Below are positions 2,819 through 22,685 of a stretch of DNA of 64,000 bases, piece by piece. The notes beneath the pieces are model-generated. The model had not been told where the DNA came from. It did no database searches and saw only the letters and a list, made by a program, of their open reading frames with translations. The position numbers and the translations under genes were made by a program. Numbering within the stretch: the first letter of the stretch is position 1; each line of letters opens with the position of its first letter. The DNA comes from Escherichia phage YJin-2024a, in the sequence record PP534475.1; one strand, written 5' to 3'.

Positions 2819-4195
2819 TTAAGATGCAGCGTAAGCACCAGATACAACGCCATTACTAAAGTAACGTTGCAGGTTAACACGCTGAGTAACGTAGTACGCG
2901 TCACGCTGTTTACCAGCTTGGCGCTCACGTTCAACAGTAACAGCACGCTGACGCGGCATTACGAAGTTATCTTTATAAACAATAACTGCGAACTCTGCAG
3001 AGTTAGCTTTAGCCGGGAAGAACTCAGAAACTACAACCGGCAGACCGTAAATACGACCAACCTGACCTTGCAGTTTAACAGCATCATTACCAACCTGGGC
3101 AACATCCTGCCATTCTTCATCTTCCAGCAGATCGTAATAAGCATCCATAGATACGATCAGTACCAGTTTGCTCAGTTTCAGACCATGACGACCCAGTTTA
3201 CGACGCAGTTTAGAGATAGTTTTAGCAGTTACTAGAACAGAACCATCAGCTTTAGCTTCAGTAATAACTTTAGCACTATCGCCTTCAGCCAGTTTCAGCA
3301 GACCCTTAGGCTTACCAGTACCGTCACCAGTCATGAAAGCTTCTTCGATAGAAACAGCGTGTGCTTCAATCAGACGCTTACGAAGCAGCGGCAGTAAGGA
3401 GAAGATTGCATCTTCTTCAGTTTCATCAGTAATGAAGGACTTAGCAGCCAGTTTGTAAGTACTGAAGTGAATTTCTTTAAGAGCACCTTTAACTTCACTA
3501 CCAGTGGTTTCATCAGTACCATAGGTAGAAGCAGCAACCCAAGTAGCTTTACCAGCATCTGGTTCAACCAGCATAGTAAGAATTTTGCTGGACATTGGCA
3601 GTTCTTCAAACAGAGCACCAACTACTAGTTCTTTTTGCAGGTCACGAATAATACGCTGGGAGAAAATAGTTTCATAATTTTCACTAGAAACTTCTACTGA
3701 AGAGGACTGGTTTACAGCTTTCAGGTGTCTCTGGCCATGTTCGGTATCAAATACACCTTTTTCCATCACGTAGGACAGAAGAACCAGTTTCTCCACTTCG
3801 TCTTCAAAGTTTTCTTGAGTACCATACAGTGCTTTAGCTACGCTATCACCGACGAAGGAACGACCTTCACGAGCTGCTAGCAGAGATTTAATTTCATCCT
3901 GAAGACCAACAATAGTTTCCTGCTGTTTTTCTACAGTCTGTGCAAACAGTTCCGCGCTCTTTTTAGATTTTTCATCCAGGGATTTAACCAGTTCCAGAGC
4001 TTCTTCTAGCTTCTGACGATCTTCGCCAACTGCTTTAGAAACCAGATCATTCATACGAGCCAGTTCTTTTTCTTCCTGCTCTTTACGCATACGTTCAGCT
4101 TCCGCAGCTTTCTGAGCAGCAGTCAGACCTTCCAGAGATTTAGCCAGATCACCCAGACCAAGTTCTTCCTTCAGCTTATTAATATCAATAGTCAT
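2819..4195 (-). CDS. major capsid protein with N-terminal scaffolding (delta) domain
   Basis: 458 aa; N-terminal ~150 aa charged coiled-coil region; directly downstream of prohead protease and portal. Confidence 0.85.
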   Translation of the reverse strand: MTIDINKLKEELGLGDLAKSLEGLTAAQKAAEAERMRKEQEEKELARMNDLVSKAVGEDRQKLEEALELVKSLDEKSKKSAELFAQTVEKQQETIVGLQDEIKSLLAAREGRSFVGDSVAKALYGTQENFEDEVEKLVLLSYVMEKGVFDTEHGQRHLKAVNQSSSVEVSSENYETIFSQRIIRDLQKELVVGALFEELPMSSKILTMLVEPDAGKATWVAASTYGTDETTGSEVKGALKEIHFSTYKLAAKSFITDETEEDAIFSLLPLLRKRLIEAHAVSIEEAFMTGDGTGKPKGLLKLAEGDSAKVITEAKADGSVLVTAKTISKLRRKLGRHGLKLSKLVLIVSMDAYYDLLEDEEWQDVAQVGNDAVKLQGQVGRIYGLPVVVSEFFPAKANSAEFAVIVYKDNFVMPRQRAVTVERERQAGKQRDAYYVTQRVNLQRYFSNGVVSGAYAAS

Positions 4196-8892: not shown

Positions 8893-10680
8893 TTAGGTAA
8901 GGCGTTGAACTGTTACTCTTAATCTTGGTAGGAAAATAGCTGCAGCCTCATCTGCATGAATAATTACGCCCAATTCAGCATTACCATTTCCTAGATTTTT
9001 AATAGTATAAATATATCCGTTTCTTCTAAATGTTAACTCATCAGGTCTACTTGCCCAAGTTTGAGTATAACTATATGCAGTAGTGGAGTGATAAGGGACT
9101 AAGTATCCAGGAGGTAAGGTTAATATTTGATGGAATATTCCATCACCTTCCGTGTAACTATGCTGTCTTCTTCCTTGTACTTGCCAAGCAGCACCACCGT
9201 ATGTGCGTATGGCTCCTCCAGCCGTATTAATATTACCCATAATAACTTCCGTAGTTAATATTACCGTTGCGTTAGCGTTAGGCAATCCTAATCCTATGGT
9301 GGCCAAAGCTCTATAGTAGTTGCCTGCTCCAGGATACGCGGGGGTTATATCATCACCAACGTAGGTGCTAGCAACATTATTAGGAAATAGTCTTAAAGGT
9401 ACAGTACTAGGACTCCACACAGCTCCATGCTCATTACCGATAGTGTTATTACTTGAGTTTACGTACCATTGCTTACCTGCTCCGAATTTGTAAATACTGA
9501 TTTGAGACTTGGCTCCTCCATAATCTACAGGAGACCATAAAGATCCATTACTAGATCCTACAATTTCACATCTTGCAGTGGTATCCCCGAAGGCTCCAGT
9601 GTACGCTGCGTTATTTCCAATGTACTCCATATCTGGCCTATAGCCTAAGTTACCAAAAGCATTTTGGTTGATAAACTTATATCCAGTATTTGGTAAACTA
9701 ACCCCTTTTATAGTAAAATTAGATGGAGTTATAAGTATATCTGACCCAGTAAATGGATTACCAGATACACCCATATTACCATTAGAGTACCTTAGATTAA
9801 GTACATACCAAATAACCTTAGTAGGAGTTATGTTATACCAATCCTGCACATACACTTTCTTAGCGGCCTGTGCTGCTAGATTAGATGTTGAACCTTTACA
9901 TATATAAACCTTATCAGGATACGTAGGAGATTGGTATAATAAGTTAACATTAGCTGGTACTGTGCCCTTTTTACCTACGTAACCTCGTATATTAGAGTTA
10001 CAAACATAGAACCAATTATGCCCCCTATGGGCGGCCCCTATAGGAGCTTGCCAATTAGGATGCCAGTAGTCAGCATTACCACCGTCTATAGGTACTGTAG
10101 ATGCTCCTGCTGGAAATCCTGCTAAAGTCCATGCCCTACCTATAGCCTCACCAGCATATGCTCCTCCCGGCCTATATAAATTAAACCCGGAGGCTTGAGA
10201 TATGGTACCACCTGTACCCTGCCTAGCAATTGATTCTTCATGGCCTAAACCAGAGTTATAAATATAGGTGCCATGTGCTAAACTATTACCTGATGCAAAA
10301 GCTGACGTAAGACCTACTTCTGCACCTGCCCTACCAATAGGCGGATCTTCAAAAAATGCAGTAAATTGACCAACTTGAGACTGAGTACCATTAAGAAAAG
10401 CCCTATGAGTACCATTAATCTCAATAGCAGTTAGTATAACTCTACCTGGGTCATTGGATTTAATATTTATTATGTCAGAGGGCATCTGACATACAAAAAA
10501 CCCATTTCCAGCATTTCCTAATCCAGCCTCATAAGTGCCATCAACTAGGACAAATGGCATATCACTATGAAAAATACTATTGGCATTTGGACTATAATGA
10601 CGATTAATGTCACCACCAGATTCAGTATTTAAAGATAGTACGGTCTTACCATCGCTATATTTTCCAGCGAAAAAACCCAT
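8893..10680 (-). CDS. receptor-binding tail protein (pb5/Oad-like) or tail fibre
   Basis: 595 aa, Gly/Asn/Tyr-rich; last late gene before the repeat region; divergent lipoprotein gene next to it, as recalled for T5 oad-llp. Confidence 0.5.
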
Positions 10681-11864: not shown

Positions 11865-12015
11865 TTTGACTTTTGCCAAATTTCATAAGATTACACATGG
11901 AGGTGTGCCCAGTGGCCTCCCGGATGAGAATGCGTCTCATTACCGCCCGGTACTTAGCAGACTAATAGTCACGGCATGTTATCATTGCACACCGTGACTA
12001 TTTCAATTTTAATTA

Positions 12016-12750
12016 TTATGCGACTTTTAGTTTCTCAATATATTGTTGCGGGCTGCAACTATATTCCGCGCGTTCTTCCTCGGTCATACTTTCCCAGCAT
12101 AACTTCAATCGATCGGCTAGAAATTGATAATCATTATCATCGTCGAGAGATTCATCAATAAAGGTTCCGCCTATCAATGCCACGCCGATGGATAGAATAT
12201 CATTAACGGCTTGCGCATCTAGCGTTTTAAATCCGTATGACGCCGCCGCTGATAATACACCTTTATGATCATCAATCATTGTAAAATCAGCGTTCGGATA
12301 TAGTTGCTTGAATAGCTCAAAGTAATGGCTTTTATATATATCGTCCTTGCTGTGGTATATCTCGCTAACCTTATCAGCCGTAAAATATTTGTGAAGTGTA
12401 TCGCGGGAAAACACGCGGATATTAGTATCCCCACGCCCGCGCAATCCTTGTTTGCGTAGGAAGTAATAATCTGACTTGCTCATCAGTCGAGCGGTACAAA
12501 TAATGTTTAAAGTGTTTGCGTCATTCATGCACTGGCGCATATATTCCACCAATGGCAATAAGGTATCTTGCATAATTAAATCATGCTTGCAAGCCTCATT
12601 TTTATACTTATTTAAATCTAAATTACCCTCGCTATCAAAGCAAGGTGCTACACGATGGAACGAATTAATGATTGTGCCATCAAGATCCCAGATCATGACA
12701 CGGGAAATATGCGGGAAATTACGGGTAATATTCGTTTTAACTTGATTCAT
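12016..12750 (-). CDS. dmp: 5'-deoxyribonucleotidase (HAD superfamily), Dmp-like
   Basis: HAD motif I WDLDGTI; start placed at the internal Met with GGAGA RBS (244 aa). Confidence 0.7.
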   Translation of the reverse strand: MNQVKTNITRNFPHISRVMIWDLDGTIINSFHRVAPCFDSEGNLDLNKYKNEACKHDLIMQDTLLPLVEYMRQCMNDANTLNIICTARLMSKSDYYFLRKQGLRGRGDTNIRVFSRDTLHKYFTADKVSEIYHSKDDIYKSHYFELFKQLYPNADFTMIDDHKGVLSAAASYGFKTLDAQAVNDILSIGVALIGGTFIDESLDDDNDYQFLADRLKLCWESMTEEERAEYSCSPQQYIEKLKVA

Positions 12751-12830
12751 TTTGTTACGTTCTCCATTAAAGGGATTTAGTTTATCCAGCATTACCCGCT
12801 ATTTATAAGCGGGTAATAATAAATCAACTA

Positions 12831-13223
12831 TTAAAGACCATAAGCCAACGCATCAGCGATGAAGCTAATATCTTCGCCGGATACATGAGAACGAATACCA
12901 GCGCAAGTATACACCTTTGCGCTCGTTAGCTGATCATCAAAGCAAGCTGGACAAGGCGCGACAACTGCAAACGCTAGGCCAGCTTTTACGGCGTCGATGA
13001 TAATCGTTTCCTGCTTCACCGTATCAACATAAACGCCTGCGGCCTTGATGTGACTACTTGCGCGGCCTTGAGTATAGGCAAAGGTAGTAACCTGCAAAGC
13101 GTCATTGAAGTCTAATAATTCATCAATAACGTGCCCCGCCTCAACGTGGTAACGTTCACCATTAGAATAAACCAGAACGATTGAGGATTGAGCGCGATCG
13201 AATGGAATATTTTGCTTTTTCAT
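12831..13223 (-). CDS. hypothetical protein (130 aa)
   Basis: ORF with conserved pre-early leader upstream; contains PCPAC motif but no convincing family assignment. Confidence 0.5.
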   Translation of the reverse strand: MKKQNIPFDRAQSSIVLVYSNGERYHVEAGHVIDELLDFNDALQVTTFAYTQGRASSHIKAAGVYVDTVKQETIIIDAVKAGLAFAVVAPCPACFDDQLTSAKVYTCAGIRSHVSGEDISFIADALAYGL

Positions 13224-13288
13224 GTTTATAACTCCAATTAATTTAATAAGGGATATAAGCGAGGTATATACCCCGCTTATAAAGTTAA

Positions 13289-14959
13289 TTATGCGAAAAA
13301 TTTGCCGTTTTTAAAGTCAATCAAAGTGCGCTGACCGTTCGCATAGGTAATTAAATGCGTTTGCGTCCAGCTTGACGCGCCAACGTTGTAACCCATATCG
13401 AGGGAACCAGCAACGCCCGCGGTATATACACCGCCGTAAATGCTTGCCGTATGCGTATGCCCCGTGTTTAACTTGCCCAATTTTTTAAATTGCTTCGGAT
13501 TGCCACGGCTGCCGTTAATGCCGTTGTGACCGTGTACGCCGCATTCAATGCCTGCAATTTTAAATGATTGGTCAGTCGTTAGGAAAATTGCGTTAAACTC
13601 GCAACCTGCAACCGTACGCAGCGCATAATCTAGCACGTTGAAAGTATCGTCATGATTACCGATTGCCGCGTAAATCGCAGCATTAAGGCGGTGATACAGT
13701 TCCGCGTTGGCTGGATCGTCTTTAATGTTAGCATTGCGATCATCAAGCCAACGAGAAAGCGCCAAATCGTGGTTTGATTCCACAATGATTGTTTGACTAA
13801 AATCACGTTCCATTGATTCCAGCACGCGCCCGGTGTCGATCAGATCATCAATAACCTTATCACGTCCGGCTGCATACTGTTTCGCTAGAAATACACCAGA
13901 CGCGCGGTTGTGATGGTTGCGTGATGTAAAATCATGCACGTCATGGACGAATTGATATTTTGGTTTGAGAATATCCACTAGCCCATAAGTATCACCGTGA
14001 CCCCATGACGCAGCGGCGCACTCCTCGTCTAATTTTTCGGCGTGAATATCGCCATATTGCAAGCCTAAAACATGCCCCGTTGTTTCAAAGCATCCGGTGG
14101 GAGTAGCGCAAACGTTCAGATCGTAAAACATGCCGCTTTCGTCCATTGTTTCAAGCTGGCGCACAAAAAACTCACCGTCTTCGTCGAACTCAACAATCAG
14201 CGCACCGTAATTATGCAATGCTTCCGCTTTTTGCCCTGCTTTCTGCTGAATGTAGTTTTTAAGCGTTGCCGTTCCGGTTGAATACATGCGGCGTACTACT
14301 TCACCTTTGAGAGCTGGGACGCTTTCGGCGGTGATTTTAGCGTGACCAATTGCCAGACCTTCAAGATTAAGCGCCGTTGCAGTTTCTGCAAATCCAGATA
14401 GCGGGTAATCTGCGGTGGGCAAAACATTAATTTCAGCCATGAAAGCGAAACGGCGGTTATTTAAAAACACGTTTTTGCTGCAAATATATTTATCAAATGC
14501 GGAATCATATTTTACACCGTCTGCGCCTTCACCATTTTGAAAGCCGTTTTTGTTATAAATATACTTAGAAACAAGCAAATCAGCGCCGATAAATTGGGCA
14601 TATTGTTCAAGCGAGGCTAAAAAGTTTTTATGAGGGAAAGTATTATTCTGAATCGATGTAATAATAAAGCGTTTGCCTTGTTTTACTTCCCACTGTTCAA
14701 CCGTGCTGGAAATAATTCCAGCCGCTTCGGGGCGCTCGTCGTTTTTAATGGCTTTTACAGCTTTCGCCGCTTTTGGTTTCGCTGGTTTATTTGCTTCTAA
14801 CCAATCGCAAATTGCGGTCGAGTGCTTCGTTGTGTCATATACCGCTTTAGAAATATCGTCACAAACTTCCAGCTTGGTGGCGCGCAGACGTTTACCGTAG
14901 AAATTAAAGTCAGCGGCCAGTTTCAGGATAACGGTTTGTTTTTCTGCGGAAAAAATCAT
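13289..14959 (-). CDS. A1: A1-like pre-early protein, calcineurin-like metallophosphoesterase
   Basis: GDIHA, GHGDTYG, SNHD and GHTH phosphoesterase motifs; 556 aa from the internal Met, the length I recall for T5 A1. Confidence 0.75.
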   Translation of the reverse strand: MIFSAEKQTVILKLAADFNFYGKRLRATKLEVCDDISKAVYDTTKHSTAICDWLEANKPAKPKAAKAVKAIKNDERPEAAGIISSTVEQWEVKQGKRFIITSIQNNTFPHKNFLASLEQYAQFIGADLLVSKYIYNKNGFQNGEGADGVKYDSAFDKYICSKNVFLNNRRFAFMAEINVLPTADYPLSGFAETATALNLEGLAIGHAKITAESVPALKGEVVRRMYSTGTATLKNYIQQKAGQKAEALHNYGALIVEFDEDGEFFVRQLETMDESGMFYDLNVCATPTGCFETTGHVLGLQYGDIHAEKLDEECAAASWGHGDTYGLVDILKPKYQFVHDVHDFTSRNHHNRASGVFLAKQYAAGRDKVIDDLIDTGRVLESMERDFSQTIIVESNHDLALSRWLDDRNANIKDDPANAELYHRLNAAIYAAIGNHDDTFNVLDYALRTVAGCEFNAIFLTTDQSFKIAGIECGVHGHNGINGSRGNPKQFKKLGKLNTGHTHTASIYGGVYTAGVAGSLDMGYNVGASSWTQTHLITYANGQRTLIDFKNGKFFA

Positions 14960-15048
14960 AATAATAAACTCCATTAAAGGGACTAGGTTAATAATGGCAA
15001 TGTTGCCAAATATAACGCCTTGAATAATAGGCGTTATAATTTGCAACA

Positions 15049-15246
15049 TTAATTTAAAGGCATCAGGCTAGAACTAACACCACAAACAATGGCAGCAATA
15101 AAACAAATCAGACCTAAACGCTTTGCCAATATTGATTTACGTTTAAAATAATACGAATCTAAATCATTTTGAAAATATGCGAACAATAATGAAGCCGCCA
15201 TAATAAATAAGCCTAGAATGAGCGATTCAGTGGGGTAAAAGATCAT
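15049..15246 (-). CDS. small membrane protein
   Basis: Hydrophobic 65 aa; start placed at the ATG preceded by the conserved pre-early leader (the ORF track begins at an upstream GTG). Confidence 0.4.
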   Translation of the reverse strand: MIFYPTESLILGLFIMAASLLFAYFQNDLDSYYFKRKSILAKRLGLICFIAAIVCGVSSSLMPLN

Positions 15247-15303
15247 TTTAATAACTCCAATTAAAGGGAAATTATAGTGGGGAATAATCCCCACTAGTTA
15301 AAT

Positions 15304-15711
15304 TTATTCACCTGCGGCCTGTTTTACCTCATCGGCAACGCCTAGCAGTTGCGCCACGGCGTCCAACGTTTCTAATTTTGCGCTTTCCAGTGATGCCAGA
15401 TCATCGGCGTCCTTGATAATGCCGGAATCAATAGCGTGTTTTGCAATTACTCGCACATAGTGAGCTTTACGGATTGAACTACCGCCGCCAACTTTGCGCG
15501 GCTTGTCGCTTTTCTGGTAGGCTTTCGCGCTGGTCAATTTCGAACGAACTGACACGGGAGAAGTAGCGCCCACTGCCTTTGCGATCTCTTTCAAGCCGTC
15601 GCTATTTGCAAAATCTAGCCCGTTTTCATTGATTAGTTGCTGATACATGGAAACAGCCTGCTGGGTGTTTTCTTCGTTCCAGGAAAATTTTGCGGTTTTT
15701 GCGTTAGTCAT
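15304..15711 (-). CDS. A2: A2-like pre-early protein
   Basis: 135 aa, basic C-terminal half; immediately downstream of A1; conserved leader upstream. Confidence 0.55.
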   Translation of the reverse strand: MTNAKTAKFSWNEENTQQAVSMYQQLINENGLDFANSDGLKEIAKAVGATSPVSVRSKLTSAKAYQKSDKPRKVGGGSSIRKAHYVRVIAKHAIDSGIIKDADDLASLESAKLETLDAVAQLLGVADEVKQAAGE

Positions 15712-15811
15712 GATATAAACTCCAATTAATTTAATTTAAGGGATTAAATGATTAACTAATGTTAATCGTTATATACCCCAAACTATCGGGGCATATAAAG
15801 TTAACACTAAT

Positions 15812-16063
15812 TTATAAAACGGCTTCCCATTTTTCGTTGCGTTGAACAACCTTTACAACGTCGCCGGATTTAACGCGAACGTTATAAATCGGCTTGCCGC
15901 TGTTACTGCGTTCTGTTTCAGCGTATACCGCGTCAATTGTATCGAACGGCATGAGCGCCGCGCCTTTAATACGTTCGGCTTTTCCGGTTAATTCGTCCGT
16001 TTTAGTAACGAAAGGAATAAAAACGGATTGACCAATTTTTGGCGCGGTAATAACGTTTTGCAT
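15812..16063 (-). CDS. hypothetical protein (83 aa)
   Basis: ORF with partial conserved leader upstream. Confidence 0.4.
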   Translation of the reverse strand: MQNVITAPKIGQSVFIPFVTKTDELTGKAERIKGAALMPFDTIDAVYAETERSNSGKPIYNVRVKSGDVVKVVQRNEKWEAVL

Positions 16064-16293
16064 AATATAAACTCCTGTTTATTTGCTGGATTGTTCCGCA
16101 TTACCTGCTAGAAAATAACAGGTAATAAGAAAAAATCCGCTCGCCATTGTAAAATCAATTTAAGGAACTCCACGAAGGCCGCTATATCCCAGTTAGGGGG
16201 CGGGGCACATTATGGCAAGTACCGGCCGTCAGATTTTATCAAGTTATCGCTCTTATCGAACTGGGTATATCTTAAAGCCTACCGGCTAGGTTG

Positions 16294-16497
16294 TCAAATA
16301 GTTTTTTGCGCTTTTTTATGATTTTCCTTCAGGTCAATCATAATGTTTCGCCAGATCATTTCTAGTCCTTGCTGGCGGCCTTTCTTGTACTGCTCAAATC
16401 GATATTTTACCGATCTTTGCGCTACTGTCAATAAATTTTTTGTTTTGCTATCCAGTGCCTTGCTAGGTTTACCAGTGATCAATAAAGTTTGTTTCAT
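16294..16497 (-). CDS. hypothetical basic protein (67 aa)
   Basis: ORF only. Confidence 0.3.
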   Translation of the reverse strand: MKQTLLITGKPSKALDSKTKNLLTVAQRSVKYRFEQYKKGRQQGLEMIWRNIMIDLKENHKKAQKTI

Positions 16498-17187
16498 ATC
16501 GTCGATTCCTTATAATGAATAAGTTTACCGCCGATAGGCTTTAAGATATACCCAATTTTTAAAGAGCGCGGCGGTAAACTTCCCGCCGTGTAGTTCGTCA
16601 TTGCCGCCCTACGAGATAAATAATAACAAACAACGAAAAAGGCGCAACCTTATATTTGTAAAGAAATGTAAAGACAAACGCCACCGGACACCGTGCGGCG
16701 ACCTGGGCGCAGCGCATTAAAATTAAAAGAAACGGGCGCGCGAATAACACAAAACATAGCAGATAGGCAAGTGATTTTTTCATTTATATTTGCTTTGGGG
16801 GTATTGACAAAATCTAAAAAGCTCGTGGCAGCGATAAACGGCTTATCCCTTTATGATTGGATGGCTAAAAACTTTATCGCGTTCTGGGGCGTTTTAGGCC
16901 GCCTATTTTCGACTTAACAAATCATTAACAAACGCAAAATTGAAAAATAGTTGGAAAAGGTCTTGACTTTTAAAAATCAAGGGGCGTTGCGTTAATTTAT
17001 TAAATAAAATATTTGACTTTTATTTGTTAGTATGCATCGGAAAGATAGCAGACTAATAATTGCTAGGATGATAATCATGCTGGTGGATTGTAACGGCCTG
17101 AATTATTAGCAGACTATTAATCACGGAAAATCTCATTAGCCAACTAACTATTTCATGATATATAATATACTTATAAATTAATGAGAA

Positions 17188-17270
17188 ATAATAACAATAA
17201 GAAATCATCACCATTATAATAATAACAATAAGAAATCATCACCAATATAATAATAACTATAAGAAACTAT
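17188..17270. repeat. tandem ~30 bp repeat, about 2.8 copies
   Basis: ataataacaataagaaatcatcacca repeated head-to-tail. Confidence 0.7.
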
Positions 17271-17280
17271 CGGCCTAAGT

Positions 17281-17410
17281 GAGAACCACTATCATTTAAG
17301 TTATCCACAACGTTTTCCACAGCACAAAATAACTTGACACGATAGGCGGCGATATGAGGGCTTTTACACATACTTATCCACAGGTTATCCTACTGTATAA
17401 ATATACAGGG
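17281..17410. repeat. inverted repeat arm A with DnaA-box motifs
   Basis: Two perfect TTATCCACA boxes (about 17301 and 17375); reverse complement matches 19575..19710. Confidence 0.75.
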
Positions 17411-17643
17411 TAGAAAGACAGTGTTAACGACTGCAATCAATTTTAAGCGGCTTAAAACGCTTTCTAACGAGCTGAAGGCTGCGGGGTAATATTAAAGTAA
17501 AGCCTCAATGCGTCGCCCTGGTGGCTTCGCCGTGTTTTGCTCTTTATTACACCGCTGCGCGGTTAGCATAAAAATAGGCGTTAGGCAAGAAAAAATTTAC
17601 CAATAACACCGAAAACGAGTAATAACTAGCCTATTGTAAAGTT

Positions 17644-17684
17644 TTGTAAAGGTCGCCTTTTATGGTGGCCTTTTTTGTTATAAT
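17644..17684 (+). promoter_or_regulatory. candidate promoter with extended -10 (TGTTATAAT)
   Basis: tgtTATAAT at 17677-17684, about 25 nt before the first plus-strand ORF. Confidence 0.35.
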
Positions 17685-17707
17685 GCCTTTACACCGTTTG
17701 AGGACGG

Positions 17708-17971
17708 TTGAAAATTTTCCCAAAAATTTGGAGGCTTAAAATGGTTGCTTTTTCTTCTTCTGACGCTCTTTTCACTGGTAAAGGCTGGGTATCAAATCGC
17801 TGGATTATTCAGGAAATGGTGCAAGAATACGGCATTGCTAAAACTTATACTACCATTCAGGCGCTTTATGATAATGATCAAATCGATCAGCAAACAGCGG
17901 GCTTTTTACTGGATACCCTGAAGGCGGAACACTGTACCAAAAAACAAGCCGCCAAAATTGTTTTAATGTAA
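17708..17971 (+). CDS. hypothetical protein (87 aa)
   Basis: GGAGG RBS; first gene of the plus-strand module. Confidence 0.5.
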   Translation: MKIFPKIWRLKMVAFSSSDALFTGKGWVSNRWIIQEMVQEYGIAKTYTTIQALYDNDQIDQQTAGFLLDTLKAEHCTKKQAAKIVLM

Positions 17972-18021
17972 TTAATAACGGGGCGATACTTTCGCCCCCA
18001 CTAACTAGGGGAGTATTAAAA

Positions 18022-18171
18022 ATGGTTATTTTTCGAGCTATTCTGGCGGGTATCTTGGGCGCTATTTTATCTTTGTTTGCAATAGCTTTCGACGTTCACG
18101 CGGTTATTATAGGCGCGGGTATCGCTGTATTTTCTTATCTGCTGGGCTGCATGAATAGTAAAGGAGAATAA
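18022..18171 (+). CDS. small membrane peptide (49 aa)
   Basis: GGGGAG RBS; hydrophobic throughout; not in the ORF track. Confidence 0.35.
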   Translation: MVIFRAILAGILGAILSLFAIAFDVHAVIIGAGIAVFSYLLGCMNSKGE

Positions 18172-18173
18172 AA

Positions 18174-18386
18174 ATGATCCGCAACGTTTCTCTTGCACGT
18201 TCGAAAGGTTTTAAGCTGGTGGACGCTAACACGTTCGAGCGTCCAGATTGTAAAATCGAATATGTAGCACGTAATAAAAATGCCTTTCGTGTTACCGAGA
18301 AAAAATTTGATAAGCGCGGCAACGTGATCCTTGAAACGGTTAGGCACTTTGCCACCTTTTACGCTGCATTTCGTGGGGTACTATGA
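18174..18386 (+). CDS. hypothetical protein (70 aa)
   Basis: AAGGAG RBS immediately upstream. Confidence 0.5.
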   Translation: MIRNVSLARSKGFKLVDANTFERPDCKIEYVARNKNAFRVTEKKFDKRGNVILETVRHFATFYAAFRGVL

Positions 18387-18508
18387 AAAGCGTTATTGTT
18401 GTTCTCCTTGCAATGGCTGGCGGTTTTATCGCCACCTTATTTAAGAATGATCCTCTTTCATTGGGGATCTTTATGTTATTATCAGGCTATCTGATCGGGA
18501 GGTTATAA
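18383..18508 (+). CDS. small membrane peptide (41 aa)
   Basis: ATGA overlap with the upstream ORF; hydrophobic. Confidence 0.35.
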   Translation: MKSVIVVLLAMAGGFIATLFKNDPLSLGIFMLLSGYLIGRL

Positions 18509-18509
18509 A

Positions 18510-18854
18510 ATGGTTATTTATGAGGGCAACCGTTTTGTTGCTAACTGCCGCCCGGCATTGTTAGCAAACTATTTGAACCAGCTTTCGCCAGCTTATAAGG
18601 GCGTTATTAATATTTATGAGGGCAAGGCGCATTATAAAATCAATGCGGTCGTTGCCCGTGAACTAGCGTTTCAATTTTTGACCTTTGCATCTTGCGACGT
18701 TCAGGTTATGGGTGAGGCATTAATCGCAGAAAATGAAGACGATTTTATTAATATTTTCCGTAAGGTGTGCACCGAGCGCCTGATAATGAAAGGCGCGTAT
18801 ATTCAATCCACGGCTGATAGTATTGAAACAGCGTTTCGAAAAATAGGTAAATAA
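18510..18854 (+). CDS. hypothetical protein (114 aa)
   Basis: GGGAGG RBS; largest ORF of the module. Confidence 0.5.
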   Translation: MVIYEGNRFVANCRPALLANYLNQLSPAYKGVINIYEGKAHYKINAVVARELAFQFLTFASCDVQVMGEALIAENEDDFINIFRKVCTERLIMKGAYIQSTADSIETAFRKIGK

Positions 18855-18855
18855 T

Positions 18856-19017
18856 ATGGCTGTTTATATTGCTTTGCTAGGATATGCGTTATCCCTTATT
18901 GTTGGTATGGTTATTTATAGCGCAATCGGCAATATTGTGTTATCCCTTGTTGTCTGCACTATATTAGGGCAGTTTTGCGGAATGTTCGTTATATATAAAT
19001 TAATGCAAGGAAAATAA
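18856..19017 (+). CDS. small membrane peptide (53 aa)
   Basis: Starts 2 nt after the upstream stop; hydrophobic. Confidence 0.35.
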   Translation: MAVYIALLGYALSLIVGMVIYSAIGNIVLSLVVCTILGQFCGMFVIYKLMQGK

Positions 19018-19127
19018 TACTAATGAGATTATATATTTTCGTTGGTAATGCTAGGGCAGCTAATGATTCCGCTGGTGGCGATAACGTTCGCCACTATTGG
19101 CAAAAATATATTTACTAGGGCATTATT

Positions 19128-19322
19128 ATGAGCAATAAAATTATTGTAACCAAAACTAGTACAATGGTTGATATTTTTTACGTGCCCGATACGCCGGAAA
19201 ACCGACAAGCGGTTGAGCGTGGGGAATATGATAAAGTGATCTATGATCACGATGGTTATTATCAGTATTTGGTGGATTCATATGGGGAGGAGGAAAAAAT
19301 CACGCATCGACTACCCGACTAA
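19128..19322 (+). CDS. hypothetical acidic protein (64 aa)
   Basis: ORF with upstream ATG context. Confidence 0.4.
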   Translation: MSNKIIVTKTSTMVDIFYVPDTPENRQAVERGEYDKVIYDHDGYYQYLVDSYGEEEKITHRLPD

Positions 19323-19365
19323 TAATCACGGGGCGCAACTATCCGGAAGTGCCCCCAATTTTCAA

Positions 19366-19384
19366 ATGATAATCATTCTCATTT
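19366..19384. promoter_or_regulatory. palindromic site AATGATAATCATTCTCATT (full-site version of the half-site repeat downstream)
   Basis: Near-perfect dyad built from the AATGAGAAT half-site. Confidence 0.5.
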
Positions 19385-19574
19385 GACCGCGCCCGCGATG
19401 GTTAGCCTGCTAATGGTTAGGGTGTTACGTGTCGCCTTGTGTGATCGTTAGCGGGCTAACTAATTTTCAAGCCTCCTCCAATTTTGCCCTTGTTTTAGTA
19501 CCTCCAACAAAATTAAACGCGTTAGAATGCGTTTGAGGGCGTTTTAACGCTATATTAGAACTATTCACTGCGTA

Positions 19575-19710
19575 GGAATACTGTATATTTATACAGTAGG
19601 ATAAGCTGTGGATAAGTCTGTTGATAACGCCTCAAAATGGCTAGGATTTTGTCAAGTCAAATCGTGCTGTTGATAAGTCTGTGAATAACTTAAATAACAG
19701 TGTTTCTCAC
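19575..19710. repeat. inverted repeat arm B with DnaA-box motifs
   Basis: Reverse complement aligns with 17281..17410 over about 130 bp; TGTGGATAA at about 19607. Confidence 0.75.
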
Positions 19711-19719
19711 TTCCATTCT

Positions 19720-19937
19720 TAAATGAGAATCATTATCGTTCGCATTCCGCTTTTTAAATGAGAATCGTTTCACTTCTTAAATGAGAATCATTCCGCTTTT
19801 TAAATGCGAATCATTATCATTTGCATTCCACTTCTTAAATGAGAATCATTCCGCTTTTTAAATGAGATTGATTCTCGTTTCACTTTCTAAATGCGAATTA
19901 TTATCATTCTCATTCCGCTTTTTAAATGAGAATGATT
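19720..19937 (+). repeat. array of 8 direct repeats TAAATG(A/C)GAAT(C/G)ATT
   Basis: Copies at about 19720, 19755, 19778, 19801, 19836, 19859, 19888, 19923. Confidence 0.8.
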
Positions 19938-19983
19938 CTTATTATCATTCGTATTTAGCGCAGGGCAATTGCCCTGCGCTTTT

Positions 19984-20583
19984 GTGCAAATCCGACATTG
20001 CTCCACGGGTGTTACGTGCGGGTGTATGTGCAAATCCGACAGGATTTTTGGTAGTGTGCAAATCCGACCCGAAAAATTTTTATAGTGTGCAAATCCGACA
20101 ATGAATTTTCCCAAAAACTCCAGCAATCTCGAACTGCGTTCGAATCCTGTGGGGTATGTGCAAATCCGACATGGTTTTTCTAGGATTAAGATGTGCGAAT
20201 CCGACAAGATTTTTATGACTTCGATTGGAGGGTGTGTGATTATGTGAGTTTGGGGAGAAGATGAGAGAGTGAGAGAAACTTGGGGGAACTGTGGGAGAGG
20301 CGCATGTTTGGTGCGGAGCACCCGATTTGCGGGGATTTTGGGGAAGAGTTGAGAAGATTTGGGTTAATTTGAGATTAGTGGAGATAAAGTAAAATTTTAT
20401 TAGCAAAATGGGGCAAAATAGCTTGACAAGTGAAAATTTCTGTGGCTCTAAAAACTCAGGTAAACATGGGCCTTCGGCCCGAAATAATGCTGCTATTTTC
20501 ATGAGATTATATGTTCCTAAAAACTTAGGCAATTGTGCAAATCCGACCATAAATTTCTAGAAACACAATGTGCAAATCCGACA
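19984..20583 (+). repeat. array of 8 direct repeats GTGCAAATCCGAC(A/C)
   Basis: Copies at about 19984, 20028, 20056, 20087, 20158, 20193, 20535, 20570, each followed by a short T-rich tract. Confidence 0.8.
20226..20400 (+). repeat. purine-rich block with several G4-5 tracts, almost no C on the plus strand
   Basis: gggagaag, tgggggaac, gcggggatt, ttggggaag within about 170 nt. Confidence 0.6.
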
Positions 20584-21118
20584 ATAAAATCCAGAAATGT
20601 GTTTTCAAAAAATGTCTCCTAGAAATAACCGCCCTCCCCATAACCGCCCTGTATTAAACCGCCTAGTATATGTTCCTAGAAACTTAGGAGAACCGCCCAC
20701 TAGAAGTATGATATCTCGTGAGAACTCTGGAGTTTCTAGGAAAGTGTTGTGCCATCCTAGCAGATGAGTGGCAACCGGTGTATCATCTTGAATGTAAATT
20801 ATGTGGACAAAAGTTTTACCTTTTATTTAAATAAAAGATCCCCAGGGTTCTCATATAGAGCTTTGCCCCCGCCAGAAGGTCTCGTGGTGTTTCTAGCAAT
20901 TTATATTAAATTACTTATTAACTTGTCCTGTCGCTCCGTATCCTCCGCTACAAGTTAGTAATTTTAAATTACTGAACCACCACACCTTCTGTGTGGCAAC
21001 TCTAAATGGTTAATTCTATTAACTCATAGAGTTATGATAACATACATTTAGCTATCTGTCAACGAGAGTTTGTATTTGAGTCTCGGTACAGGTATTGTGC
21101 ACCGAGACATGCAGGATC

Positions 21119-22082: not shown

Positions 22083-22685
22083 TTAATCCTTTTTACTTTC
22101 ATTAATAGCAGCTCCCAACGCCTCCATAATAGCATCCTCTAAACTCCCATGTTTACTAGGATTATTAAAATGAATAGTACAAACAGAACTCCTAGAAACT
22201 CCAGCATCTGCAGGTGCTACGCTTCGCATATCAGATTCAAAAGCTTCTTGAGTATGTTTCAACTGCACAGAAGGGCCATAATCTTCCACAAACTTATATG
22301 ACTGCGTACTACTTACCACACCCCCACAAGGAACATTGTGCATATCCGGTGATTTATTTAGCATTGAGATTGTCCCTGGCTGCCACGGATCCCGAATAGT
22401 TACTGGAGTACTAGGGCGGTTCACCTCAGCCTTCACAAGTTTATATCCAGCGTCTATTAATGCATTAATAAGGTTATCAGCTGGAATGCGAGCCTTGCCA
22501 AAAATCTCACGAGCGTTGTTGAGCCTACCTTCAAAACCTTTACATGCTCTAATATTAGTGTGTGCAAAGGTTAGCTTCATAGATTTGAATTGTACAGTAG
22601 CAGTTAAATCTTTAAAGCTATAATCCCATGTATTCAGTTCATGGTCTGGTACTACTTGAATAGGTTGTTGTACATTAAAAGTCAT
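22083..22685 (-). CDS. hypothetical early protein (200 aa)
   Basis: ORF with ATG start. Confidence 0.6.
   Translation of the reverse strand: MTFNVQQPIQVVPDHELNTWDYSFKDLTATVQFKSMKLTFAHTNIRACKGFEGRLNNAREIFGKARIPADNLINALIDAGYKLVKAEVNRPSTPVTIRDPWQPGTISMLNKSPDMHNVPCGGVVSSTQSYKFVEDYGPSVQLKHTQEAFESDMRSVAPADAGVSRSSVCTIHFNNPSKHGSLEDAIMEALGAAINESKKD

What the first reader, a model, noticed from the sequence alone, without database searches (positions are those of the whole stretch)
19984..20583. Eight direct copies of GTGCAAATCCGAC(A/C), each followed by a T-rich tract
A 14-nt motif recurs at irregular 27-72 bp spacing in one orientation (six copies at 19984-20206, two more at 20535-20583) in a region without credible ORFs. 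Same-orientation short sites in the non-coding part of a terminal-repeat-like region look like an iteron array, for example a binding array for a phage or host DNA-binding protein involved in DNA injection arrest, replication initiation or end processing.
Basis: seen in the sequence. Interest (0 to 1): 0.7.

Follow-up and report, generated by a model that had tools for sequence, protein, structure and literature searches.

The report
Known T5 "direct repeat D" array

Summary
There are eight same-strand copies at the stated coordinates, and no shuffle reaches that count. The window is a T5-like phage. The T5 GenBank record AY587007 already annotates these sites as "direct repeat D copy 1-9". 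They lie just right of palindrome J and the 7.9% nick. Six are inside the left terminal repeat and the rest just beyond its end.

What I added:
- The core is T-GTGC(A/G)AATCCGA(C/T).
- It is more conserved than its spacers.
- It is always on one strand, with irregular spacing.
- It falls in all three reading frames, so it is not coding.
- It matches no Rfam family.
- It persists, while the spacers diverge, in Pectobacterium My1, Klebsiella Sugarlandvirus and Pantoea AAS21, and in altered forms in Vibrio phages.
- I did not find it in the homologous region of a Proteus phage or an Aeromonas phage.

The inferred terminal-repeat end in the window is after position 20448, between copies 6 and 7.

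The best reading is an array of recognition sites for an unidentified phage-lineage DNA-binding protein. Which process it serves is unresolved. I weakly favour control of two-step DNA transfer (about 0.3). Terminal-repeat maturation and origin iterons follow at about 0.2 each.

Novelty: already known. Interest: low to moderate.

The parts
19983..19997 (+). DRD copy 1 (TGTGCAAATCCGACA)
   Evidence: homologous to T5 'direct repeat D copy 1'
20027..20041 (+). DRD copy 2
20055..20069 (+). DRD copy 3
20086..20100 (+). DRD copy 4
   Evidence: this copy is lost in phage NR01, where an HNH gene is inserted
20157..20171 (+). DRD copy 5
20192..20206 (+). DRD copy 6 (variant GTGCGAATCCGAC); last copy inside the terminal repeat
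20534..20548 (+). DRD copy 7; first copy beyond the inferred terminal-repeat end
20569..20583 (+). DRD copy 8. T5's copy 9 has no counterpart in this window.
19957..19980 (.). Perfect 12+12 palindrome AGCGCAGGGCAA/TTGCCCTGCGCT followed by TTTT. It corresponds to T5 palindrome J and looks like a + strand terminator. By homology the '7.9% nick' lies on the - strand between 19979 and 19980 (AAAA|GCGCAGGG), 4 nt left of the GTGC of copy 1.
19605..19689 (-). Two pairs of DnaA or DnaA-like boxes (TTATCCACA, TTATCAACA, TTATCAACA, TTATTCACA), the IRD'-spacer-IRC' element of T5
   Evidence: Davison bioRxiv 10.1101/866236
19700..19955 (+). A+T-rich direct repeats of the TTCTTAAATGAGAATCATT type (T5 DRC/DRE). 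GC is 28-30% in 100-bp windows.
20207..20408 (+). Spacer between the two DRD clusters with a G-rich + strand. The high GC skew (+0.46 to +0.70 in 100-bp windows) spans about 20150-20450.
20409..20454 (+). Most conserved element of the region (GGGGCAAAATAGCTTGACAAGTGAAAATTTCTGTGGCTC|TAAAAAC). The right end of the terminal repeat is inferred to lie after 20448.
   Evidence: The annotated repeat ends of T5, SIA3lw and phiR2-01 fall at the same homologous base, and that of Stitch 4 nt later. This is the only segment that still matches most Klebsiella phages by blastn.
20469..20481 (.). Hairpin GGGCC-TTC-GGCCC just beyond the repeat end. In Sugarlandvirus a different hairpin (CACGGTG-ACA-CACCGTG) sits at the same place.
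20627..20698 (+). Four copies of AACCGCC(C) after DRD copy 8, a second short motif family of the same non-coding block

Best explanation
These are copies 1-8 of 'direct repeat D' (DRD) of the T5-type non-coding block. That block is called Repeat Region 3 or the injection-stop-signal region. It separates the pre-early genes of the terminal repeat from the early genes.

Shown here:
- The unit is a roughly 15-nt asymmetric site, T-GTGC(A/G)AATCCGA(C/T)-(A/C), often followed by a short T run.
- It is kept as a discrete unit while spacers, spacing and copy number change.
- All copies share one orientation.
- It is not read as protein and matches no known RNA family.

Inferred:
- Each copy is a recognition site for a sequence-specific DNA-binding protein.
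- That protein is encoded by the phage lineage rather than the host, because the motif drifts between lineages whose hosts overlap (GTGCATTTCCGAT in Sugarlandvirus; GGTGCAAATTCTA and ATGTGCGAAACCTAT in Vibrio phages). I did not find the motif in the homologous region of a Proteus phage or an Aeromonas phage, yet both keep DnaA boxes.
- The array loads several copies of the protein on the DNA at the junction between first-step and second-step DNA.

Which process it serves is not shown. My weak preference (about 0.3) is control of two-step DNA transfer. In that reading a pre-early protein made from the first-step DNA takes hold of this junction to restart or guide entry of the remaining 92%. Terminal-repeat maturation and origin function are close rivals.
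For: Identity: the T5 record AY587007 annotates 'direct repeat D copy 1-9' at 9672-10409, and a scan of that locus finds the same 14-mer at exactly those places. The window aligns to T5 copy for copy. RefSeq NC_005859 places copies 1-6 inside its 'injection stop signal' feature, 9140-10149.

Site-like behaviour:
- Motif columns are more conserved than the rest: 0.99 against 0.86 versus T5, and 0.75 against 0.39 versus a Sugarlandvirus-like contig.
- About 20 T5-like contigs each carry 5-11 copies on one strand.
- The motif survives in My1, GlastoCabaret, AAS21 and Vibrio phage Chester with spacings of 13-123 bp within clusters.
- Phage NR01 tolerates an HNH gene inserted inside the array and the loss of copy 4.

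Not coding or RNA:
- Spacings are not multiples of 3, so the motif is translated as RICT, VGFAH or SDLHI depending on the copy.
- Relatives need frame changes to align with the - strand ORFs.
- There are no Pfam or PHROG hits, and no Rfam family reaches its threshold.

Position: the array starts 4 nt right of the nick-1 site. Davison places the first-step shear point at about this position. The block is the only conserved non-coding DNA at the pre-early/early boundary.

A pre-early DNA-binding protein exists. A2 matches PHROG 1725, 'DNA binding protein'. A single-sequence model is all-helical, and its best but non-significant fold matches are tri-helical HTH, Myb and homeodomain folds.
Against: No binding protein is known, and none could be assigned here.
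- A2, including its putative recognition helix (SVRSKL / SVRTKL), is conserved in the Proteus phage, where I found no DRD in the homologous 10.8 kb.
- Davison considers the stop signal to lie left of the shear point, which excludes DRD. He assigns DRD no function.
- A phage-encoded reader cannot cause the initial stop, because no phage protein has been made at that time.
- If transfer halts at about 7.9%, the array would still be outside the cytoplasm.
- The DnaA-box, A+T-rich-repeat, direct-repeat layout and the nearness of the repeat end fit the rival readings at least as naturally.
Confidence: 0.6

Rival explanations
1. Terminal-repeat maturation or packaging signal. The DRD copies would be recognition sites for the terminase (or a small-subunit-like partner) that defines the right-hand cut of the terminal repeat in concatemers. 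This would be analogous to the repeated sites around lambda cosN or SPP1 pacC.
For: In four independently annotated genomes the repeat end falls at one homologous base, between copies 6 and 7. That is about 240 bp after copy 6 and about 90 bp before copy 7. The sequence at that end is the most conserved stretch of the region. The two-cluster arrangement around it is kept in Sugarlandvirus and AAS21.
Against: In Vibrio phage Chester all 8 copies lie outside the annotated repeat, whose end is 39 bp to their left, so the geometry around the cut is not conserved. That boundary is taken from the record and I could not check it. Spacing is irregular and tolerates a 0.55 kb insertion. Nothing similar is seen at the left boundary of the repeat. 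No T5 small terminase subunit is known to me (from memory).
Confidence: 0.2
2. Iterons of a replication origin. DnaA boxes, A+T-rich repeats and DRD iterons would form an origin in each terminal repeat. It would be opened by host DnaA and/or a phage initiator such as the UL9-like helicase D2.
For: The three modules lie in the order and proximity typical of iteron origins: DnaA boxes at 19605-19689, a 28-30% GC repeat block at 19700-19955, and direct repeats from 19983. Six of the 11 consensus DnaA boxes in 64 kb lie in two 80-bp clusters in the repeat. DnaA boxes plus DRD-type repeats recur in Vibrio phages. No T5 origin has been defined at the sequence level. D2 has been proposed as an initiator (PMC3632103; Pfam PF02399). 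[quoted passage not shown]
Against: The core is 14-15 nt and has no regular or helically phased spacing. No conserved initiator gene lies next to the array. D2 resembles UL9 only in the helicase N-terminal part, and its N-terminal domain is present in all lineages, with or without DRD. The A+T-rich block is not the least stable DNA in the window. Older electron microscopy placed origins centrally, and Davison argues against an origin role.
Confidence: 0.2
3. Binding sites for a conserved host protein, for example a nucleoid or regulatory protein shared by enterobacteria and vibrios.
For: The 12-nt core is identical between T5 and Vibrio phage Chester despite about 32-40% protein identity. It lies beside host DnaA boxes.
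Against: The motif drifts between phages of the same host group. I did not find it in the Proteus and Aeromonas phages, which keep DnaA boxes. By eye it does not fit the CRP, IHF, Fis, DnaA or sigma-54 consensus. That comparison is from memory and was not run with a tool.
Confidence: 0.07
4. Specificity element of the T5 nicking enzyme.
For: Copy 1 sits between the two conserved parts of the nick-1 site, GTAAY at -36 and |GCGCAGGG. In Chester two copies are each preceded by CCTGCGCC.
Against: The T5 major nicks at 22336 and 39746 share GTAAT...|GCGCAGGG but have no DRD. Apart from one perfect copy inside gene T5.019 at 12153, no DRD occurs in T5 11201-61200. Seven of the eight copies in the window have no GCGC next to them.
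Confidence: 0.03
5. A peptide repeat in a real gene, or a repeat within a functional RNA.
For: Long stop-free - strand frames cover the array. A conserved promoter-like site on the - strand points toward it.
Against: The motif falls in three frames and the frames are broken in relatives. The long frames are explained by the pyrimidine-rich - strand. No protein family and no Rfam family match.
Confidence: 0.02

Closest known systems
T5 'direct repeat D' (DRD), copies 1-9. Sources: GenBank AY587007 (Wang et al. 2005), Repeat Region 3 / iss region in Davison 2020 (bioRxiv 10.1101/866236), and first sequenced by Heusterspreute et al. 1987 as cited there.
   Same: Same sequence, order, orientation and neighbours: palindrome J, the nick-1 site, and the repeat end between copies 6 and 7.
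   Different: This phage has 8 copies, not 9, because T5's copy 9 region is absent. The terminal repeat is shorter, about 8.5 kb inferred (11906-20448). The perfect extra copy inside T5 gene T5.019 is degenerate here.
Iterons of theta-type origins (pSC101, P1 oriR, F oriS, RK2 oriV, lambda ori). Layouts recalled from memory.
   Same: Several same-orientation short repeats lie next to DnaA boxes and an A+T-rich block.
   Different: The core is shorter (14-15 nt against 17-22). Spacing is irregular. No adjacent initiator gene is present. No origin activity is known.
Terminase recognition arrays (lambda cosB R sites, SPP1 pacL/pacR). Recalled from memory.
   Same: Repeated sites lie on both sides of a precise end-forming cut in the T5 group.
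   Different: Geometry is not conserved in Vibrio phage Chester. The array tolerates a large insertion. Binding by terminase has not been tested.
Short-repeat arrays next to the T7 terminal repeat (SRL/SRR; Dunn and Studier 1983). Recalled from memory.
   Same: Arrays of a short oriented motif lie beside the direct terminal repeat of a virulent phage, and their function is still unclear.
   Different: The sequence is unrelated. T7's arrays lie outside the repeat on both sides. No comparison was run here.

Membership tests
T5 direct repeat D (DRD) of Repeat Region 3 | Sequence matches the annotated DRD copies | tested here: met
   The same 14-mer lies at all nine annotated T5 positions, and the window aligns to T5 copy by copy
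T5 direct repeat D (DRD) of Repeat Region 3 | First copy immediately right of palindrome J and the 7.9% nick site | tested here: met
   Palindrome at 19957-19980 with GCGC|TTTT, 4 nt before copy 1
T5 direct repeat D (DRD) of Repeat Region 3 | Six copies inside the terminal repeat and further copies just beyond its end, all on one strand | tested here: met
   The end is inferred after 20448 from four annotated genomes. Physical ends of this phage were not available.
Injection stop signal (iss) | Lies in the interval annotated as iss in T5 | tested here: met
   The NC_005859 iss feature at 9140-10149 covers copies 1-6 but not copies 7-9
Injection stop signal (iss) | Acts in cis to halt or restart DNA transfer at about 8% | not testable with these tools
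   Needs mutant phages and first-step-transfer assays. The literature I read assigns DRD no role.
Iteron-type replication origin | Direct repeats of 17-22 bp at regular, helically phased spacing | tested here: not met
   The core is 14-15 nt. Spacings are 44, 28, 31, 71 and 35 bp in the window and 13-123 bp in other lineages.
Iteron-type replication origin | Adjacent DnaA boxes and an A+T-rich unwinding region | tested here: met
   Four boxes at 19605-19689, then 28-30% GC at 19750-19950. This is not the lowest GC in the window.
Iteron-type replication origin | A cognate initiator encoded next to the repeats and binding them; origin activity | tested here: inconclusive
   Neighbouring genes are not conserved between lineages. 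The candidate initiator D2 lies far away and is present in lineages with and without DRD. Binding and origin firing cannot be tested here.
Terminase recognition site (cos/pac type) | Fixed position relative to the end-forming cut | tested here: inconclusive
   Fixed in T5, SIA3lw, phiR2-01 and Stitch but different in Vibrio phage Chester as annotated
Terminase recognition site (cos/pac type) | Bound by the terminase small subunit | not testable with these tools
   No binding data are available, and no small subunit was identified in this work
Protein-coding repeat | Conserved reading frame across relatives with the repeat in one frame | tested here: not met
   The motif is read in three frames, the frames are broken in T5 and others, and no family matches
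Known RNA family or CRISPR-like array | Match to a curated RNA model; or repeats of 23 nt or more with regular unique spacers | tested here: not met
   Only sub-threshold Rfam hits, all centred on the palindrome. The repeats are 14-15 nt, and spacers are irregular and conserved between phages.

The most novel reading that the evidence does not exclude
The DRD copies are the iterons of the still undefined T5 replication origin. In this reading the conserved block of DnaA boxes, A+T-rich repeats and DRD iterons at the end of each terminal repeat is where replication starts. The DRDs would be read by a phage initiator, with the UL9-like helicase D2 as the obvious candidate. Replication would then run mainly in one direction, which would explain the strand bias seen in recombitron editing of T5. 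The similarity of the reverse complement of the variant copy (..ATTCGCAC) to the herpesvirus UL9 box (GTTCGCAC) is recalled from memory and untested.
Probability: 0.18. Interest if true: 0.75.

Novelty: already known. Interest (0 to 1): 0.3.

Why it matters
How T5 stops DNA entry at 8% and restarts it has been unexplained for more than fifty years. Neither the T5 replication origin nor its packaging signals have been defined at the sequence level. The DRD array is one of the few sharply defined, deeply conserved cis elements at the place where all three processes could act. Showing what binds it would assign a function to a classic unexplained region. As a finding from this scan, though, it re-detects an annotated feature. 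What this analysis adds is modest:
- site-level selection on the motif
- exclusion of coding, RNA and nickase readings
- the spread of the motif to Sugarlandvirus, AAS21 and Vibrio phages, with lineage-specific drift
- placement of the array relative to the repeat end

Tried and rejected
- Promoter reading. The sigma-70 scan finds no promoter-like site in the array. The TATAGT- and TAAGAT-like hexamers before some copies have no consistent -35 partner, because spacings vary from 16 to 23.
- Terminator or RNA reading. Rfam gives only sub-threshold hits on the palindrome J hairpin.
- Hairpin unit. Copy 2 forms AAATCC-GACA-GGATTT, but the downstream half is not kept when the motif changes (Sugarlandvirus ATTTCC copies still have a plain T run). 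The T run is therefore not a conserved inverted half-site.
- Coding. Rejected.
- Nickase element. Rejected, because other major nick sites lack DRD.
- Adjacent initiator gene. Neighbouring genes are not conserved between lineages.
Weakened by the Proteus phage, which keeps A2 while I found no DRD in the homologous 10.8 kb. I did not scan its whole genome. The A2 model (pLDDT 76, pTM 0.40) gave only non-significant HTH, Myb and homeodomain matches.
- D2 N-terminal domain as a phyletic marker. It is present in all lineages, so it does not discriminate.
- Shared motif at the left and right repeat boundaries. Only AAATTTC at different distances, which is not convincing.
- Resemblances by eye to CRP, IHF, Fis, DnaA, sigma-54, LacI-family half-sites, the XerC arm of dif and the tRNA T-arm. 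None fits over the conserved core, none was tested with a tool, and all were dropped.
- Papers I could not obtain: Davison 2015 (Bacteriophage), Werten 2013 and Bourguignon 1976. A full-text search for the motif found nothing.

Full report
**Observation**

The 14-mer GTGCAAATCCGACM occurs on the + strand at 19984, 20028, 20056, 20087, 20158, 20193 (one mismatch), 20535 and 20570. There are no copies on the other strand. With up to two mismatches the scan finds 9 sites against 0.47 expected, and none of 100 shuffles reaches 9. The 8-mer AATCCGAC occurs nowhere else in the 64 kb window. The T-rich tail is present after copies 2-6, weak after copy 7 and absent after copies 1 and 8.

**What the window is**

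The region matches 455 phage records by megablast. All are T5-like Salmonella, Escherichia and related phages, and the best match is 93.9%. Alignment to T5 places T5 position 1 at about window 11906 and the T5 repeat end at about window 20448. The window therefore holds one copy of an ~8.5 kb terminal repeat, preceded by genes from the right end of the genome.

**Identity of the motif**

- The T5 record AY587007 annotates 'direct repeat D copy 1-9' at 9672-10409.
- Copies 1-6 follow palindrome J and 'major single-stranded nick 1, 7.9%'. The left terminal repeat ends at 10139, and copies 7-9 lie beyond it.
- Davison's 2020 preprint lists 'nine DRD repeats' as one of three major repeat classes of Repeat Region 3, but gives them no function.
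- RefSeq NC_005859 marks 9140-10149 as the injection stop signal and places the nick at 9748/9749 on the minus strand.

The finding is therefore a correct re-detection of a known, annotated element of unknown function.

**Anatomy**

From 130 distinct instances in about 20 arrays the core is T-GTGC(A/G)AATCCGA(C/T)-(A/C). There is a weak A/T preference just upstream and a T run 5-7 nt downstream. From left to right the surrounding block contains:
- two pairs of DnaA or DnaA-like boxes (19605-19689)
- A+T-rich direct repeats (19700-19955, 28-30% GC)
- a perfect palindrome plus TTTT carrying the nick consensus (19957-19980)
- DRD copies 1-6
- a spacer with a strongly G-rich + strand (high GC skew, up to +0.70, over about 20150-20450)
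- a highly conserved element containing TTGACA
- a hairpin
- DRD copies 7-8
- four AACCGCC(C) repeats

The annotated repeat ends of T5, SIA3lw and phiR2-01 fall at the same base (...CTGTGGCTC|), and that of Stitch 4 nt later. This puts the end after window 20448, which is 242 bp after copy 6 and 87 bp before copy 7.

**Is it a discrete functional site?**

- Motif columns are more conserved than the other columns of the array region in 10 of 12 comparisons at p<0.01. Examples are 0.99 against 0.86 for T5, 0.75 against 0.39 for a Sugarlandvirus-like contig and 0.63 against 0.50 for Pectobacterium My1.
- All copies in every array share one strand.
- Spacing is irregular and differs between lineages.
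- NR01 carries a homing-endonuclease gene inside the array and lacks copy 4.
- The motif is kept in Klebsiella phage GlastoCabaret (5+4 copies, with a GTGCATTTCCGAT variant), Pantoea phage AAS21 (5+3) and My1.
- In Vibrio phage Chester, whose A1 protein is 32% identical, there are eight copies of GGTGCAAATCCGA or GGTGCAAATTCTA. They sit 6+2 around a TTGAC element, beside the same palindrome and DnaA boxes as in T5.
- Another Vibrio lineage (D325) has ATGTGCGAAACCTAT and ATGTGCGAATTCAA repeats at the equivalent place.
- A Proteus and an Aeromonas relative have no such motif in the homologous region but do keep DnaA boxes.

**Readings excluded**

- Coding. The two mechanical minus-strand ORFs come from a pyrimidine-rich strand. 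The motif is read in three frames, relatives need frame changes to align, and no family matches.
- Known RNA. No family reaches its threshold.
- Promoters. None is found in the array.
- Nickase element. The three T5 major nick sites I examined share GTAAT at -36 and |GCGCAGGG, but only nick 1 has a DRD between those two parts.

**Mechanism**

The evidence supports an array of recognition sites for a sequence-specific protein. That protein is probably phage-encoded, given the lineage-specific drift beside invariant host DnaA boxes. I rate this general reading at about 0.6. The evidence does not say which process it serves.

- *Transfer control (about 0.3).* This rests on position: the array is at the first-step/second-step junction and copies 1-6 lie inside the annotated iss. 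It also rests on the existence of a pre-early DNA-binding protein, A2. A low-confidence model of A2 looks like a tri-helical HTH. Against it, A2 is conserved in the Proteus phage, where I found no DRD in the homologous region, and the array may lie outside the cell during the pause.
- *Repeat-end maturation (about 0.2).* This rests on the fixed position of the cut between the two clusters in the T5 group. It is weakened by Chester, where the annotated repeat end lies left of all copies.
- *Origin iterons (about 0.2).* This rests on the DnaA-box / A+T-rich / direct-repeat layout and on the lack of any defined T5 origin. It also draws on the proposal that the UL9-like helicase D2 is an initiator and on a reported strand bias pointing to unidirectional replication from one end. 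It is weakened by the irregular short repeats, by the absence of an adjacent initiator gene and by older microscopy as cited by Davison.

**Verdict**

The feature is already known. Interest is low to moderate. The most novel reading still open is that this block is the T5 replication origin.

Noticed in passing
window 19940-20020 (- strand); T5 NC_005859 9748, 22336, 39746: The three T5 major nick sites I examined share more than the published NPu|GCGCN consensus. All three have GTAAT 36 nt upstream and |GCGCAGGG at the nick on the minus strand. The window keeps GTAAC...AAAA|GCGCAGGG at the nick-1 position, with DRD copy 1 lying between the two parts.
   Followed up: partly
window 21034-21062 (- strand): A strong sigma-70-like site (TTGACA-17-TATCAT with an upstream TG; TATAAT in other T5-like phages) is conserved even where flanking sequence differs. 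It points leftward from the end of the last early gene toward the DRD block. No conserved ORF or annotated product lies downstream.
   Followed up: partly
window 20627-20698: Four copies of AACCGCC(C) lie just after DRD copy 8. The motif is conserved in T5-like phages, My1 and Sugarlandvirus. It is not annotated in T5.
   Followed up: partly
window 20409-20481: The roughly 45-bp element at the inferred repeat end is the only part of the region still found by blastn in most Klebsiella Sugarlandvirus phages. The hairpin just after it is replaced there by a different hairpin at the same place.
   Followed up: partly
window 20107-20130 and 20720-20743: A 24-nt inverted repeat (79% complementary) brackets the repeat end. 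One arm lies between DRD copies 4 and 5, the other after the AACCGCC repeats. The GAGTTTCTAGGA part resembles the sequence just upstream of the T5 nick at 22336.
   Followed up: no
window 17301-17382 and 17061-17340: A second cluster of four DnaA boxes on the opposite strand (T5 IRC-spacer-IRD) lies next to one of the most A+T-rich stretches of the window (24-26% GC in 200-bp windows).
   Followed up: partly
T5 NC_005859 12153; window 22337: T5 and many relatives carry one more perfect TGTGCAAATCCGAC about 1.8 kb to the right, inside gene T5.019 on its antisense strand. It is not annotated as a DRD. In this window it is degenerate (3 mismatches).
   Followed up: partly
L134 (Vibrio phage Chester MN966732) 3593-4173: The annotated terminal-repeat boundary lies at the end of a run of about 16 tandem 8-bp units (TCTAGACT / TCTATCCA) and excludes all DRD-type copies. 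By homology with T5 the end would be expected about 320 bp further on, beside a TTGAC element. Either the end has moved in this lineage or the boundary in the record is imprecise.
   Followed up: partly
L138 (Salmonella phage NR01 KR233164) 659-1330: An HNH homing-endonuclease gene is inserted inside the DRD array between copies 3 and 5. Copy 4 is lost. This is a natural test showing that the contiguity of the array is not essential.
   Followed up: yes
L127 (Proteus phage M4H10_20) 2293-2480: Where T5-like phages have the DRD and G-rich segment, this Novosibvirus has about nine tandem 15-18-bp units (CCACCATTCTATTATTC). It also has three 46-bp repeats near its DnaA boxes. This may be a different repeat family doing the same job.
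   Followed up: no
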